Shown here: positions 9,270 through 12,991 of the stretch, one piece after another
Layout of the letters: every line of letters begins with the position of its first letter
Position numbering within the stretch: position 1 is the stretch's first letter
From: a virus
UHGV virus genome: UHGV-0157346
Direction: 5' to 3' (one strand)
DNA: 17,922 nucleotides
The notes under the pieces: model-generated
Databases searched by the model: none
Told to the model about the DNA's origin: nothing
What the model saw: only the letters and a program-made list of their open reading frames with translations
Position numbers and translations under genes: made by a program

Positions 9270-9441
9270 AGCATTCAAAGCAGAAGGCTTTGGGGTGTGG
9301 TGAAGGGTTCATGGATGGGAATATGTCGCACGTAAAGCGGCGAGGCCTGCGGAACTATTGCCGAATTGAAGTCGGCCGAAGCAGGTCGAAATGGGTCTCC
9401 CACCTACCACACCACCAAAGCTAACTGACAGGAGAATCCAG

Positions 9442-9774
9442 ATGGATGCACAAACACGCCGCCGCGAACGTCGCGCAGAGAAACAGGCTCAATGGAAAGC
9501 AGCAAATCCCCTGTTGGTTGGGGTAAGCGCAAAACCAGTTAACCGCCCTACTCTCTCGCTGAATCGCAAACCGAAATCACGAGTAGAAAGCGCACTGAAT
9601 CCGATAGACCTTACGGTGCTGGCTGAATACCACGAACAGATTGAAAGCAACCTGCAACGTATTGAGCGCAAGAATCAGCGCACATGGTACAGCAAGCCAC
9701 GCAGTGAAATGGGTGTGACTTGTGTTGGTCGCCAGAAGCAACGCGGAAAATCAATTCCAGCTTATTACGATTGA
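9442..9774 (+). CDS. N: Antitermination protein N, lambda type
   Basis: MDAQTRRRERRAEKQAQWKAANPLLVGVSAKPVN... with the arginine-rich motif; ribosome-binding site GGAG upstream of ATG 9442; matches lambda N through most of its length. Confidence 0.92.
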   Translation: MDAQTRRRERRAEKQAQWKAANPLLVGVSAKPVNRPTLSLNRKPKSRVESALNPIDLTVLAEYHEQIESNLQRIERKNQRTWYSKPRSEMGVTCVGRQKQRGKSIPAYYD

Positions 9775-10502: not shown

Positions 10503-10973
10503 ATGACAAAATCATGGAGCGTACCTTTTCCTGAATCAGAAACTGAACATGATGGAATGCCTGTTTTCTGGAGATTCCAGGCGACAGTTGAAGAAGATGG
10601 AATCAAAATATTCGCACTTCAATATATAGCTTTTCATCAGACAGAGCATTATGCATGGTTGGTTCCTGCGCATTGGATTGTTAATTTTAAACCAGCACCA
10701 AATCAGTGGTTACAGGAATGGAAACAAAAGAGAAATAGATATGCAATTAAGAAAGTAGCAAAAAATGCAGAAAGATCTTTTGCATTCCCAACGAAGAAAC
10801 TTGCCATTGAGAGTTTATTGCGCCGGAAGAAATACCATTTAATGAGAATTAAACAAGATTTGGCTGTTGTATCAACTCTTGTTGATGGGATGAAGAATAT
10901 TGATACATCAACACCAGATATTGAATATAACTTTGGACACAACCAAGAAACAGAAAACTGGGTATTTTATTAG
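10503..10973 (+). CDS. Hypothetical protein (156 aa), second gene of the AT-rich cassette
   Basis: ORF with the same ttatttgaggtgagatATG leader as the preceding gene; no family recognised. Confidence 0.6.
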   Translation: MTKSWSVPFPESETEHDGMPVFWRFQATVEEDGIKIFALQYIAFHQTEHYAWLVPAHWIVNFKPAPNQWLQEWKQKRNRYAIKKVAKNAERSFAFPTKKLAIESLLRRKKYHLMRIKQDLAVVSTLVDGMKNIDTSTPDIEYNFGHNQETENWVFY

Positions 10974-11077: not shown

Positions 11078-11102
11078 GCCCTCCAGTGTGAGGGCCTTTT
11101 TA
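11078..11102 (+). terminator. Intrinsic terminator after the AT-rich cassette
   Basis: gccctc-cagtgt-gagggc followed by cttttta. Confidence 0.65.
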
Positions 11103-11163
11103 TATGCATACCAATAACGCTTCACTCGAGGCGTTTTCGTTATGTATAAATAAGGAGCACACC

Positions 11164-11289
11164 ATGCAATATGCCATTGCAGGGTGGCCTGTTGCTGGCT
11201 GCCCTTCCGAATCTTTACTTGAACGAATCACCCGTAAATTACGTGACGGATGGAAAAGAGTTGAGGTCTTATTATGCGCAATGAAATAG
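11164..11289 (+). CDS. cIII: cIII-like FtsH inhibitor with a divergent, shortened C-terminus
   Basis: AAGGAG ribosome-binding site; MQYAIAGWPVAGCPSESLLERITRKLRDGWKR matches lambda CIII residues 1-32 as recalled, then diverges (VEVLLCAMK) and stops at 41 aa. Confidence 0.8.
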   Translation: MQYAIAGWPVAGCPSESLLERITRKLRDGWKRVEVLLCAMK

Positions 11290-11426
11290 CCATAAATCAT
11301 CAGATGCTTCGTGCTGCACAAAACAAAGCAGTAATAGCCAGATTTATTGGTGATTCCAAAATGTGGTTTGAAGCAAATAAAGCGATGAAATCAGCTATCA
11401 ACCTTCCGTGGTATCGCAGGAAATGA
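11274..11426 (+). CDS. kil: Kil-like host-killing (cell-division inhibitor) peptide
   Basis: 50 aa; the segment IARFIGDSKMWFEANKAMKSAI resembles lambda Kil (IATFIGDEKMFREAVDAYKK) as recalled; overlaps the cIII 3' end as kil does in lambda. Confidence 0.6.
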   Translation: MRNEIAINHQMLRAAQNKAVIARFIGDSKMWFEANKAMKSAINLPWYRRK

Positions 11427-11581
11427 GTTTTACAGATAACTGGTCAGACGAAGAATTCATTCGTCAGATGAAAGATTTAATCGGTAACGAAGGAGATATT
11501 CATGTCACTTGCAACCACAGTGAAGGAGAGCAAGTTACAGAGACGCATGTACACGCAGAAAGCTCTCTGGTATCGCCATAA
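11423..11581 (+). CDS. Hypothetical 52-aa acidic peptide
   Basis: ATG overlaps the kil TGA (ATGA); weak ribosome-binding site; overlaps the next ORF in another frame. Confidence 0.3.
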   Translation: MSFTDNWSDEEFIRQMKDLIGNEGDIHVTCNHSEGEQVTETHVHAESSLVSP

Positions 11582-11672
11582 TGGCGACCGCGAAGGAATG
11601 CGGGTATGCCTTAATTTGTCACGAGTCGAAGTATTAAATCAGCGTTATTTCCTTGGGCCGTGTCCATTCTGA
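11502..11672 (+). CDS. Hypothetical 56-aa protein
   Basis: Strong AAGGAG ribosome-binding site 7 nt upstream of ATG 11502; MSLATTVKESKLQRRMYTQKALWYRHNGDREGMRVCLNLSRVEVLNQRYFLGPCPF. Confidence 0.4.
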   Translation: MSLATTVKESKLQRRMYTQKALWYRHNGDREGMRVCLNLSRVEVLNQRYFLGPCPF

Positions 11673-11682
11673 GAACAATCAT

Positions 11683-12288
11683 ATGAGCAAAGAATTTTAC
11701 GCAAGACTGGCAGCTATTCAGGAGAATCTGAACGCGCCAAAGAATCAGTACAACTCATTCGGCAAATATAAATACAGAAGCTGCGAAGACATTCTTGAAG
11801 GCGTTAAGCCGTTACTGAATGGTCTGTTTTTATCAATCAGCGATGAAGTTGTGTTGATTGGTGATCGGTATTACGTGAAAGCCACGGCAACTATTACTGA
11901 TGGCGAAAACAGTCATACGGCAACCGCTCTTGCACGAGAGGAAGAAAGCAAGAAAGGAATGGATTCTGCACAAGTTACGGGAGCTACAAGCTCTTATGCA
12001 CGCAAGTATTGCCTCAATGGTTTGTTCGGCATTGATGATGCGAAAGATGCAGATACAGACGAACATAAACATCAGCAGAACGCAGCAGCAAAGCAATCAA
12101 AACCATCACCTACATCTGAACAGGTTCTAAAAGCATTCACTGACGCAGCAATGCAGAAAAACACCGTAGAAGAGCTTAAACAGGCGTTCGCCAAAGCGTG
12201 GAAGATGCTCGAAGGCACACCGGAGCAGCACAAAGCGCAGGACGTTTACAACATCAGACGAGACGAATTAGAAGGAGCTGCTGCTTAA
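11683..12288 (+). CDS. erf: Erf-family single-strand annealing recombinase, P22 type
   Basis: MSKEFYARLAAIQENLNAPKNQYNSFGKYKYRSCEDILEGVKPLL... matches P22 Erf as recalled; start at ATG 11683, not the track's upstream TTG extension. Confidence 0.85.
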   Translation: MSKEFYARLAAIQENLNAPKNQYNSFGKYKYRSCEDILEGVKPLLNGLFLSISDEVVLIGDRYYVKATATITDGENSHTATALAREEESKKGMDSAQVTGATSSYARKYCLNGLFGIDDAKDADTDEHKHQQNAAAKQSKPSPTSEQVLKAFTDAAMQKNTVEELKQAFAKAWKMLEGTPEQHKAQDVYNIRRDELEGAAA

Positions 12289-12671
12289 TGGCACATTCGA
12301 TTACTGTAAGACTAAACAAGCCCGCAAGAGAGTTTCAGGCCGGGGAAAATATCGGATTCAACATCCGTGCTGGCGTTCAGTATTACGATCGCCAGACAAA
12401 AAAGAAAGAATGGACAAACTACAGCGCCGTTGTATTTGCCAAGCCGGGAGCGCAAGCGGATTACTACCGTAGTGTTCTTGTTGAAGGTGGAATTGTGGAA
12501 ATTACCGGAGAAAACATCAGGGTTGATGTTTATCAGGGGCAAAATGGTCAATCAATCACTCTTGAATTACTGAATGCAAAGATTGGATTTGCAACTTCAG
12601 GAAACAGCCAACAGCAGCAAAGTAGCAATCATCAAAATCATCCTGAATACGACGATTCAATTCCCTTCTAA
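12288..12671 (+). CDS. SSB-like single-stranded DNA-binding protein with a C-terminal DDSIPF tail
   Basis: 127 aa; ATG overlaps the erf TAA (TAATG); Gly/Gln-rich linker and terminal ...EYDDSIPF resembling the bacterial SSB C-terminal DDDIPF motif. Confidence 0.65.
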   Translation: MAHSITVRLNKPAREFQAGENIGFNIRAGVQYYDRQTKKKEWTNYSAVVFAKPGAQADYYRSVLVEGGIVEITGENIRVDVYQGQNGQSITLELLNAKIGFATSGNSQQQQSSNHQNHPEYDDSIPF

Positions 12672-12694: not shown

Positions 12695-12991
12695 ATGCCA
12701 GCGCCTCTGTATGGTGCGGATGACCCGCGCAACTGCTCCGGTAGCTCCAAGGCGGAGGTGCTGGAAAATATCAAAAACAATTTCGACACGTTTATCGATC
12801 TGCCACCAGAAACAAAAGCAGAACGGATGTACCGACGCGATATACAACTCGCGTTAAAAGATGAGAAGGACCGAACAAACGAAACAGCAATGAGACCGTT
12901 GCGAAAAGCGACAATAGACAAATTCCCTGAATATATCGACCCGCGCCTGCGTAATTACCGCTCACGCTATGGCGCTATCAGTAATGACTGA
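12695..12991 (+). CDS. Hypothetical 98-aa protein; position compatible with an accessory recombination or anti-RecBCD function (speculative)
   Basis: ORF with AAGGA ribosome-binding site; function inferred only from position downstream of erf/ssb. Confidence 0.45.

What the first reader, a model, noticed from the sequence alone, without database searches (positions are those of the whole stretch)
11423..11672. Two overlapping small ORFs between kil and erf with conflicting signals
ORF 11423-11581 starts on the kil stop (ATGA coupling) but has a weak ribosome-binding site; ORF 11502-11672 has a strong AAGGAG site. They overlap by 80 nt in different frames. P22 has a small arf gene before erf, and one of these may be its counterpart; which one is real cannot be decided from sequence alone.
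Basis: inference. Interest (0 to 1): 0.22.

Follow-up and report, generated by a model that had tools for sequence, protein, structure and literature searches.

The report
Overlapping arf-like and hkaM-like phage genes
The gap between kil and erf in this lambdoid prophage holds two real, overlapping small genes, a shortened relative of phage P22's recombination helper Arf and a member of the uncharacterised HkaM family, so the case is ordinary apart from a modest point about how Arf is built.

Summary
ORF1 (11423-11581, 52 aa) starts on the kil stop codon (ATGA). ORF2 (11502-11672, 56 aa) has an AAGGAG site 6 nt upstream of its ATG. They overlap by 80 nt, with ORF2 in the +1 frame.

Comparative data show that both are genes.
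- **ORF2:** it is under purifying selection along its whole length (dN/dS 0.08-0.24). It belongs to the HkaM family of phage HK620 (phrog_1723). It is predicted to be a basic helical hairpin ending in an invariant FLGxxPF. It always sits directly upstream of the strand-annealing gene, whatever type that gene is.
- **ORF1:** only its first ~24 codons are under selection (dN/dS about 0.2, against about 1 in the other two frames). This N-terminal helix is homologous to the N-terminus of P22 Arf. The link is made by 52-aa proteins that have an ORF1-like N-terminus and pass Pfam Phage_Arf. The ORF1 tail, which is read through ORF2, shows no sequence constraint (dN/dS above 1).

The 250-bp pair moves as one mosaic cassette whose edges are the ORF1 ATG and the ORF2 stop. 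The fused form annotated as HK97 gp42.1, and similar fusions in databases, are rare indel alleles or sequencing errors, not programmed frameshifting. The molecular functions of both proteins remain unknown. Interest is low to moderate.

The parts
11274..11426 (+). The kil gene. This is context: its TGA stop overlaps the ORF1 ATG, so it is the translational coupling partner.
   Evidence: Pfam PF06301 Lambda_Kil, 68.8 bits. phrog_2055, E 2e-35.
11423..11581 (+). ORF1, an arf-like gene of 52 aa. It has no usable Shine-Dalgarno site and starts by ATGA overlap with the kil stop.
   Evidence: phrog_2123, E 1e-41. An ATGA or GTGA junction is kept in about 80 loci with more than 10 different upstream contexts.
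11423..11497 (+). Conserved N-domain of ORF1 (codons 1-25, MSFTDNWSDEEFIRQMKDLIGNEGD). This is the Arf N-terminal helix.
   Evidence: dN/dS is 0.21 in the ORF1 frame against 0.93 and 1.16 in the other two frames, in loci ascertained through ORF2. The only indel seen here is 3 nt, so it keeps the frame. hhalign to the extended Arf family gives 97% probability and E 6e-11 over columns 1-24. AF2 predicts a helix at residues 9-21.
11498..11581 (+). ORF1 tail, read in the -1 frame of ORF2. It is acidic and its sequence is not conserved.
   Evidence: dN/dS in the ORF1 frame is 1.5-1.9 in the overlap. The stop position varies, giving an overlap of 68-91 nt. The tail sequences differ between lineages.
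11490..11495 (+). Shine-Dalgarno site AAGGAG of ORF2, 6 nt upstream of its ATG. It lies inside ORF1 codons 23-25.
   Evidence: Read directly from the sequence. GGAG-type sites are present upstream of the ORF2 ATG in most of the lineages examined.
11502..11672 (+). ORF2, an hkaM-family gene of 56 aa. The product is a basic helical hairpin with an invariant C-terminal YFLGxxPF.
   Evidence: phrog_1723, E 9e-36, the same family as HK620 HkaM. hhalign to HkaM gives 92% probability and E 7e-7. dN/dS is 0.08-0.24. AF2 gives pLDDT 91 with helices at 7-27 and 30-51. It stands alone, without ORF1, in HK620, Salmonella and Erwinia phages.
11683..12288 (+). The erf gene (single-strand annealing protein). 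This is context: it is the first gene after the cassette.
   Evidence: Pfam PF04404 ERF, 152 bits.

Best explanation
The 250 bp between kil and erf is a two-gene cassette at the head of the phage recombination (Rec) module.

ORF1 is a shortened arf. Ribosomes finishing kil most likely re-initiate at the overlapping ATGA and make a small acidic protein. Its functional part is the ~24-residue N-terminal amphipathic helix that it shares with P22 Arf. The rest is whatever the -1 frame of ORF2 happens to encode, up to the first stop codon.

ORF2 is translated independently from its own strong Shine-Dalgarno site. Its product is a 56-aa basic helical hairpin of the HkaM family with an invariant C-terminal FLGxxPF.

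Both are inferred to be non-essential accessory factors of phage-directed homologous recombination. For ORF1 the inference rests on homology to Arf, which aids Erf-dependent recombination in P22. For ORF2 it rests on the gene's fixed position immediately upstream of every type of strand-annealing gene.

Shown here: both reading frames are under selection, both family assignments hold, and the pair behaves as one cassette. Inferred: the mode of translation and the role in recombination. Unknown: the molecular targets.
For: Selection:
- Two reciprocal tests avoid ascertainment bias. Loci found through ORF2 give dN/dS 0.21 for the ORF1 frame in the ORF1-only part, against about 1 for the other two frames.
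- Loci found through the ORF1 N-terminal motif give dN/dS 0.24 (overlap) and 0.10 (downstream part) for the ORF2 frame, and 1.9 for the ORF1 frame in the overlap.
- In seven closely related Enterobacter-type loci the ORF2 protein is almost invariant, while the ORF1 tails differ at many residues.

ORF1 and Arf:
- Loci L188-L201 encode 52-aa proteins with an ORF1-like N-terminus and an Arf-like C-terminus.
- These proteins score 40-49 bits on PF17585, whose cutoff is 27, and 1e-19 on phrog_2445.
- The ORF1 family matches the extended Arf family at 97% probability, E 6e-11.
- One source (nr) already names an ORF1 homologue 'accessory recombination function protein'.

ORF2 and HkaM.

Cassette behaviour: homology to other loci begins exactly at 11423 in 32 loci and ends at 11672/3 in 41 loci. 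All four combinations of flanking genes occur.

Position: ORF2 precedes Erf (57 loci), a second 241-aa annealing protein (48 loci), Sak4-like ATPases (7 loci) and other types. Full-length Arf occupies the same slot in front of three different annealing-protein types.

Literature: Arf aids recombination but is not essential for it, and its mechanism is unknown (PMC12315714, PMC9836394). HkaM is of unknown function (PMC5928155).
Against: - There is no direct evidence here that either protein is made. No ribosome-profiling or proteomic data were available.
- ORF1 itself does not reach the Pfam Phage_Arf threshold and lacks the Arf C-terminal motif. Against P22-type Arf alone the match is weak (hhalign P 0.0014; phrog_2445 E 0.011).
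- Part of the conservation at ORF1 codons 23-25 is explained by the ORF2 Shine-Dalgarno site.
- One of 83 IMG/VR loci has a stop at ORF1 codon 8, and another locus has a stop after codon 8 (L163). ORF1 is therefore dispensable in at least some prophages.
- In HK620, sak4 plus ssb give full oligonucleotide recombineering without hkaM (PMC5928155). A role for ORF2 in recombination is therefore unproven.
- The unbiased ORF1 test rests on four lineages and 24 codons.
Confidence: 0.82

Rival explanations
1. Only ORF2 is a gene. ORF1 would be a non-functional open frame. Its 5' part would be conserved at the nucleotide level because it carries the ORF2 ribosome-binding site, a translational-coupling leader, or a mosaic 'linker' used for recombination between phages.
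For: ORF1 has no usable Shine-Dalgarno site. Its tail is unconstrained. The ORF2 SD lies inside ORF1. ORF2 occurs without ORF1 in several phages. Rare loci carry early stops in ORF1. RefSeq/PGAP usually annotates nothing here.
Against: Substitutions in codons 2-25 are mostly synonymous in the ORF1 frame only (dN/dS 0.21 against 0.93 and 1.16). The only indel is 3 nt. The same peptide heads bona fide Arf proteins, and 35-39-aa ORFs in RecT-type modules that have no ORF2 downstream. The start-on-stop junction ATGA or GTGA is kept in more than 10 different upstream contexts.
Confidence: 0.08
2. The true product is a fusion, ORF1 N-part plus ORF2 C-part, made by programmed +1 ribosomal frameshifting in the overlap. 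This is what the HK97 gp42.1 annotation and the 81-82-aa database proteins would suggest.
For: HK97 is annotated with a fused gp42.1. At least eight fusion clusters exist in the protein database (P0001, P0002, P0005, P0021, P0023, P0024, P0027, P0031), and one of them is on 36 contigs. ORF2 is +1 relative to ORF1 in both deeply divergent ORF2 clades that overlap an ORF1.
Against: The HK97 two-base insertion is absent from all 971 copies in 833 complete E. coli genomes. The fusion breakpoints are scattered across the overlap and are DNA indels. No slippery site is conserved. The ORF1 stop position and tail sequence vary. ORF2 has its own conserved ATG and SD, and it stands alone in HK620, Salmonella and Erwinia phages.
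Confidence: 0.03
3. Only ORF1 (arf) is real, and ORF2 is a chance ORF with a fortuitous AAGGAG.
For: ORF2 has no Pfam family.
Against: dN/dS is 0.08-0.24 in the ORF2 frame. ORF2 homologues down to 38% identity keep their length, the hairpin and the C-terminal FLGxxPF. They also occur without any ORF1. AF2 gives pLDDT 91.
Confidence: 0.01

Closest known systems
P22 Arf (accessory recombination function; Pfam PF17585 Phage_Arf; phrog_2445)
   Same: It is a small acidic protein. Its gene lies between kil and the strand-annealing gene, at or overlapping the end of the upstream gene. The N-terminal motif is the same: [FW]-[SD]-D-[DE]-[EA]-F-[IV] followed by a hydrophobic helix. Intermediate 52-aa proteins join the two families.
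   Different: ORF1 lacks the Arf C-terminal motif NLAAERQNPxIxWxEFAG and does not reach the Pfam threshold. Its C-terminal half is an unconstrained read-through of the next gene. P22 has no ORF2/hkaM gene.
HK620 HkaM (NP_112046; phrog_1723), originally annotated 'arf' by position and later renamed
   Same: ORF2 falls in the same PHROG (E 9e-36 for ORF2, 4e-33 for HkaM). hhalign gives 92% probability. It has the same position directly upstream of the annealing-protein gene, a similar length, the predicted helical hairpin and a C-terminal ...FL..PF.
   Different: Identity is only about 33-38%. In HK620, hkaM is coupled directly to kil by ATGA, there is no arf-like ORF, and the downstream recombinase is Sak4 rather than Erf. 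The window-type tail is GPCPF, whereas HkaM ends in SELPF.
Kapi1_014 / HK140 / SEN22 35-aa ORFs (phrog_17766) in RecT/RecE-type modules
   Same: The first 16 codons are identical (MSFTDNWSDEEFIRQM), and the ATGA coupling to the upstream gene is the same.
   Different: After codon 16 a mosaic junction (window 11472) leads to an acidic tail, NKMLNQHKEQEKDDDSDSE. The following genes are a 102-aa protein and RecT, and there is no hkaM homologue.
HK97 gp42.1 / gp42 (AF069529)
   Same: It is the same locus, with 97% DNA identity.
   Different: The record has two extra bases (after window 11550 and after 11556) and a T-to-G change that creates an ATG. As a result the two ORFs are annotated as one frame. 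This allele is not found in any complete E. coli genome.

Membership tests
P22 Arf (Pfam PF17585 Phage_Arf) | Scores above the Pfam gathering threshold (27 bits) | tested here: not met
   No Pfam hit for ORF1 or for any of 19 ORF1-family members at E up to 10. P22 Arf scores 121 bits and the bridging proteins 40-49 bits.
P22 Arf (Pfam PF17585 Phage_Arf) | N-terminal motif [FW][SD]D[DE][EA]F[IV] followed by a helix | tested here: met
   ORF1 has NWSDEEFIRQM and P22 has EFSDEEFIALI. hhalign of the ORF1 family against the extended Arf family gives 97% probability and E 6e-11 over columns 1-24. Against P22-type Arf alone, P is 0.0014.
P22 Arf (Pfam PF17585 Phage_Arf) | C-terminal motif NLAAERQNPxIxWxEFAGxxx | tested here: not met
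   The ORF1 tail (IHVTCNHSEGEQVTETHVHAESSLVSP) does not align with this motif.
P22 Arf (Pfam PF17585 Phage_Arf) | A small ORF between kil (or its equivalent) and the strand-annealing gene, whose start overlaps the end of the upstream gene | tested here: met
   Window: ATGA at 11423-26. P22: arf lies between kil and erf, overlaps the end of kil by 11 nt and is ATGA-coupled to erf. Arf-type loci L188, L192 and L194 are ATGA-coupled on both sides.
P22 Arf (Pfam PF17585 Phage_Arf) | Stimulates Erf-dependent recombination and phage growth | not testable with these tools
   This is known only from genetics in P22 (Poteete et al. 1991, cited in PMC12315714).
HkaM family (HK620 hkaM; phrog_1723) | Sequence membership in the family profile | tested here: met
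   ORF2 hits phrog_1723 at E 9.4e-36 and HkaM at 3.6e-33. hhalign gives 92% probability and E 6.8e-7.
HkaM family (HK620 hkaM; phrog_1723) | Gene lies immediately upstream of the Rec-module strand-annealing gene | tested here: met
   In 117 loci, 116 have a strand-annealing gene (five types) next downstream. The one exception has an HNH gene inserted before erf. In HK620, hkaM lies directly upstream of sak4.
HkaM family (HK620 hkaM; phrog_1723) | A protein of about 56-62 aa forming a two-helix hairpin with an invariant C-terminal F-[LI]-[GAS]-x(2-5)-P-F | tested here: met
   AF2 gives helices at 7-27 and 30-51 with pLDDT 91. F50, P55 and F56 are invariant in 20 diverse members.
Programmed ribosomal frameshift gene pairs (prfB, dnaX, lambda G/GT type) | A conserved slippery or shift site, and a conserved trans-frame product | tested here: not met
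   No shift site is conserved across lineages, and the ORF1 stop position varies. All fusion proteins trace to DNA indels at scattered positions. The HK97 allele is unique.
SSB C-terminal tip (DDDIPF) mimics | A free C-terminal Pro-Phe preceded by acidic residues on a flexible tail | tested here: inconclusive
   The terminal P-F is invariant and the tail has low pLDDT. The HK620/S.Kent clade ends in [DS]ELPF. The window clade ends in G[PEG]CPF, with no acidic run. Binding to a partner is not testable here.

The most novel reading that the evidence does not exclude
ORF1 and ORF2 may form a two-part accessory factor. The acidic Arf N-helix (net charge about -9) and the basic HkaM hairpin (about +6) are co-inherited as one cassette. 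The hairpin's invariant free C-terminal ...PF would act like the SSB C-terminal tip (DDDIPF), docking onto an SSB-interacting host protein or onto the shared C-terminal domain of the phage annealing proteins. This would steer ssDNA intermediates to the phage recombinase. The acidic ORF1 tail, kept open by the overlap, could contribute as a DNA or SSB-tail mimic.
Probability: 0.1. Interest if true: 0.55.

Novelty: new variant of a known kind. Interest (0 to 1): 0.24.

Why it matters
The result settles an annotation ambiguity that recurs in about 15% of complete E. coli genomes and in many lambdoid phages. In that interval PGAP usually annotates nothing, PHROGs labels both families 'recombinase', and HK97 carries a fused ORF.

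It also shows that Arf is modular. A ~24-residue N-terminal helix is the conserved unit and it is joined to interchangeable tails. This narrows where to look for the still-unknown activity of Arf.

Finally, it groups Arf and HkaM as alternative or combined occupants of one fixed slot at the head of Rec modules. This gives a concrete pair of small proteins to test for roles in phage recombination. None of it is surprising to a phage genomics specialist.

Tried and rejected
1. **Is the ORF2 C-terminal half homologous to the Arf C-terminal half?** This would make arf a fusion of ORF1-N and ORF2-C. By eye, NLAAERQN..EFAG resembles SLARNERIN..EFLA, but hhalign finds nothing (E 0.61). Rejected.
2. 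**Programmed +1 frameshift.** Rejected; see the rival explanations.
3. **An RNA structure that hides the ORF2 ribosome-binding site until ORF1 is translated.** The fold of 11400-11560 has z = -1.7, and 11 of 200 shuffles fold as well or better. Not pursued.
4. **Fold searches with the ORF2 model.** Searches of PDB and BFVD gave nothing at E 0.001 or better. A two-helix hairpin is too generic a fold.
5. **AF2 model of a natural ORF1-N::ORF2 fusion (P0001), to see whether the Arf helix docks on the hairpin.** The N-terminal part has pLDDT 53-72 and no PAE was available. Inconclusive.
6. **Pfam search of both ORFs.** No hits.
7. **Exhaustive HMM search of 1.84 billion representative proteins with the ORF2 profile.** Only 22 hits, and no link to any larger family.
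8. **dN/dS on 49 unique ORF1 N-terminal sequences.** The result agrees (0.25), but the loci were found with peptide patterns in that same frame. It is therefore circular and is not used as primary evidence.
9. **The longer GTG-started ORF1 (11408).** Rejected, because homology to other contexts begins exactly at 11423.
10. **Similarity of Erwinia phage gp44 (C-terminus ...DFDFIRALYEMV) to the Arf helix.** Not supported by PHROGs.

Full report
**1. Observation**

- The kil gene occupies 11274-11426 (Pfam Lambda_Kil) and ends in TGA at 11424-26.
- ORF1 begins with ATG at 11423 (ATGA overlap) and ends with TAA at 11579-81. It encodes 52 aa. The only purine-rich stretch upstream is AGGA, 1 nt from the ATG, so there is effectively no Shine-Dalgarno site.
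- ORF2 begins with ATG at 11502, has AAGGAG at 11490-95 (6-nt spacer) and ends with TGA at 11670-72. It encodes 56 aa.
- The overlap is 80 nt, with ORF2 in the +1 frame relative to ORF1. The erf gene (Pfam ERF) starts at 11683.

The surroundings are a lambdoid early-left operon.
- The N gene is at 9391-9774.
- The cIII gene is at 11165-11289, with its Rfam thermoregulator at 11151-11209.
- Then come kil, ORF1, ORF2 and erf.
- The ssb gene is at 12288-12671.
- The abc2 gene is at 12695-12991.

**2. The locus is common and already sequenced many times**

The region is 94-98% identical to HK97, HK022, HK106, CUS-3, Sf101, mEp506 and Stx phages. An 81-nt probe from the overlap finds 971 copies in 833 of 5426 complete E. 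coli genomes.

Annotators disagree about it.
- CUS-3 and mEp506 call both ORFs.
- HK97 calls a fused gp42.1 and an internal gp42.
- RefSeq/PGAP mostly annotates nothing.
- PHROGs has a family for each ORF, phrog_2123 for ORF1 and phrog_1723 for ORF2. Both are labelled 'recombinase', and nothing found here supports that label.

**3. Which frame is selected?**

I used two reciprocal samples so that the way the loci were found cannot create the signal.

(a) Four diverged lineages were found through ORF2: the window, L105, Enterobacter phage L004 and Pseudocitrobacter L019. Their ORF2 identity to the window is 63-77%. In ORF1 codons 2-25 they give dN/dS 0.21 in the ORF1 frame, against 0.93 and 1.16 in the other two frames. 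In the overlap, the ORF2 frame gives 0.23 and the ORF1 frame 1.5. Downstream of the overlap, the ORF2 frame gives 0.08.

(b) Thirteen loci were found through the ORF1 N-terminal motif. They give 0.24 (overlap) and 0.10 (downstream) for the ORF2 frame, and 1.9 for the ORF1 frame in the overlap.

In seven closely related Enterobacter-type loci the ORF2 protein is almost invariant, while the ORF1 tails differ at many positions. The only indel in the ORF1-only part is 3 nt, and the L019 start is GTGA instead of ATGA.

The conclusion is that ORF2 is constrained throughout. ORF1 is constrained only in its first ~24-25 codons. The ORF1 tail has no sequence constraint. Part of the conservation at ORF1 codons 23-25 must come from the embedded ORF2 Shine-Dalgarno site.

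**4. ORF1 is an Arf N-domain**

P22 Arf is MQHEFSDEEFIALISPEIEEEVEQQINLAAERQNPIIGWDEFAGYYS. ORF1 shares the stretch xWSDEEFIRQM.

The direct statistics are weak. phrog_2445 gives E 0.011. hhalign against P22-type Arf gives P 0.0014. There is no Pfam hit.

A search of IMG/VR with the ORF1 N-terminal motif recovered 52-aa proteins such as MSVAERWDDDAFIRLMADVIGDVESEDDEPVNLDAERQNPIISMPEFAGDFT.
- Their N-terminus is plainly the ORF1 type.
- Their C-terminus is plainly the Arf type.
- They pass Pfam Phage_Arf at 40-49 bits, against a cutoff of 27.
- With them included in the Arf alignment, the ORF1 family matches Arf at 97% probability, E 6e-11, over columns 1-24.

The same N-helix is joined to at least five kinds of tail:
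- the Arf type;
- an MTHELAEQEAIADY... type;
- two acidic types (35 and 39 aa) in RecT modules;
- the ORF2-overlapping type, which occurs in two ORF2 clades that are only about 38% identical.

A mosaic junction at window 11472, after codon 16, separates the helix from the tail in the RecT-type phages. In virtually all of these loci the start codon overlaps the stop of whatever gene lies upstream, as ATGA, GTGA or TAGTG, across more than ten different upstream contexts. This is the best available evidence that the start is real and is served by termination-reinitiation. AF2 predicts residues 9-21 as a helix.

**5. ORF2 is HkaM**

HK620 hkaM (NP_112046) translates to MIPVELAKTPELSRLKREYHIAEARYWRKAGDKSKKQLCLWQAQRERMNEREFLSVPSELPF. 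It falls in phrog_1723 like ORF2 and matches the ORF2 profile at 92% probability, E 7e-7.

Hutinet et al. 2018 (PMC5928155) renamed it from 'arf' because it has no homology to P22 Arf. I confirm that lack of homology. They list it as of unknown function. In their assay, sak4 plus ssb alone reproduced the recombineering activity of the whole module.

The family is small. An exhaustive HMM search of 1.84 billion representatives gave 22 hits.

AF2 gives a confident two-helix hairpin (pLDDT 91) with a floppy tail. Across 20 members, S10, A21, E43, F50, P55 and F56 are invariant, so the free C-terminal ...FLGxxPF is the most conserved feature. The protein is basic (about +6) and ORF1 is acidic (about -9).

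ORF2 occurs without ORF1 in several places:
- HK620 and S.Kent, where it is ATGA-coupled directly to kil;
- Salmonella phage ABTNLsp11242;
- Erwinia phage EhrS_59;
- L101 and L119-121.

**6. Cassette and slot**

BLAST of window 11274-11700 against 99 loci shows that homology starts exactly at 11423 in 32 loci and ends at 11672/3 in 41 loci. All combinations of flanking genes occur. ORF1 and ORF2 therefore reassort as one unit whose edges are the ORF1 ATG and the ORF2 stop.

Downstream of ORF2 come five strand-annealing/ATPase types: P22-type Erf (57 loci), a 241-aa annealing protein (48 loci), Sak4-like ATPases (7 loci), a second Erf type and a second ATPase type. In one further locus an HNH gene sits between ORF2 and erf. 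Full-length Arf occupies the same slot in front of three of these types. The head of the Rec module is thus a fixed slot that can be filled by arf, by hkaM, or by arf-N overlapping hkaM.

**7. Fusions**

HK97 differs from the window by +C after 11550, +G after 11556 and a T-to-G change that creates an in-frame ATG. Together these fuse the frames. None of the 971 E. coli copies has this allele.

The protein database holds at least eight fusion clusters, with the frame switch at different points. Most are singletons from assemblies of raw sequencing runs. One of them, P0021, is on 36 contigs. It carries a 1-nt deletion at 11553 plus a G-to-T change at 11555.

These are indel alleles or errors that gene callers favour because they give the longest ORF. 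They are not evidence for programmed frameshifting. No shift site is conserved, and the ORF1 stop moves between lineages (overlap 68-91 nt).

**8. A weak loose end**

In the window-type clade the -1 frame of ORF2 is open for at least 26 codons and is net acidic in 7 of 7 ORF1-bearing lineages. Among ORF1-less lineages, only 3 of 8 are open that far, and their mean charge is positive. The lineages are not independent, so this is only a hint that tail length or acidity matters even though the sequence does not.

**9. Function**

Arf aids recombination in P22 but is not essential for it, and its mechanism is unknown (PMC12315714). Its acidity has prompted the suggestion that it is a DNA mimic (PMC9836394). 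HkaM is uncharacterised.

My committed reading is that both proteins are accessory Rec-module factors. ORF1 would be made by coupling to kil and would act through its N-helix. ORF2 would be made from its own ribosome-binding site and would act through its hairpin and C-terminal Pro-Phe. The gene calls and family assignments are well supported. The role in recombination is inferred from homology and position. The targets are unknown.

The most novel reading that the evidence does not exclude is an acid-base ORF1-ORF2 pair in which the ORF2 tail mimics the SSB C-terminal tip (DDDIPF; PMC5872125, PMC10164576). The invariant terminal P-F and the [DS]ELPF ending in the HK620 clade fit this reading. 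The window clade's GPCPF lacks the acidic run, so the test is inconclusive.

**10. Verdict**

The finding is real and is now explained. Both ORFs are genes, ORF1 is the arf counterpart (N-domain only) and ORF2 is hkaM. This is a useful annotation correction and a modest insight into the modular build of Arf. It is not a new kind of system.

Noticed in passing
window 11151-11209 (+): There is a full-length match to Rfam RF01804, the lambda cIII thermoregulator RNA (88.5 bits, gathering score 50). It spans the cIII start at 11165.
   Followed up: no
L001 (HK97, AF069529) 1837-2088; window equivalents 11500, 11550/51, 11556/57: The HK97 GenBank record has two extra bases and a T-to-G change. These turn the two overlapping ORFs into one annotated frame (gp42.1/gp42). 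No copy in 833 complete E. coli genomes shares this allele, so a 1990s sequencing error or a private mutation is likely.
   Followed up: yes
L205/L206 401-649; window 11553 and 11555: A natural fusion allele (P0021, 82 aa, on 36 contigs) has its 1-nt deletion and a G-to-T change within 5 nt of the HK97 discrepancies. Either the short CATGTACACGCAG stretch is indel-prone or these are patches from other alleles.
   Followed up: partly
proteins P0036 and P0037 (Salmonella Chester, E. coli); window equivalent about 11456-11476: There are in-frame tandem duplications of 21 nt inside the ORF1 helix. They give one or two extra copies of EFIRQMK (two and three copies in all), and one variant is seen on 7 contigs.
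   Followed up: no
downstream of ORF2 in L102, L115, L119, L120 and L004; window 12130-12288: Strand-annealing proteins with unrelated cores (two Erf types, a 241-aa type, Sak4-like ATPases) share a C-terminal domain of about 50 aa (...ELK..F...W..L.G......VY..R..EL) that ends in AA. This is the 'Erf domain swap' known from the literature (PMC2629481). It is a candidate common partner for ORF2 or Arf.
   Followed up: partly
E. coli genome hits H111-H122: RefSeq/PGAP leaves the ORF1/ORF2 interval unannotated in 10 of the 12 listed complete genomes. PHROGs labels both families (phrog_2123, phrog_1723) 'recombinase', which nothing found here supports. One phage record calls ORF2 'cIII protein'.
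   Followed up: partly
L005 1055-1204 (Erwinia phage vB_EhrS_59 gp44): The 49-aa gene that is ATGA-coupled upstream of the ORF2 homologue ends in ...KDFDFIRALYEMVSPGVKR. This recalls the Arf N-helix (SDEEFIRQMKDLIG) but at the C-terminus of the protein. There was no PHROG or profile support.
   Followed up: partly
window 11078-11095 and 11116-11135 (+): Two terminator-like hairpins followed by T-runs lie between the 156-aa ORF (10503-10973) and cIII. HK97 and HK620 annotate putative tL2-type terminators at the same place.
   Followed up: no
ORF2 -1 frame in ORF1-bearing versus ORF1-less lineages: The -1 frame of ORF2 stays open for at least 26 codons and is net acidic in all 7 ORF1-bearing lineages of the window clade. 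It does so in only 3 of 8 ORF1-less lineages. This may mean selection on ORF1 tail length or charge despite dN/dS above 1. The comparison is not corrected for phylogeny.
   Followed up: partly
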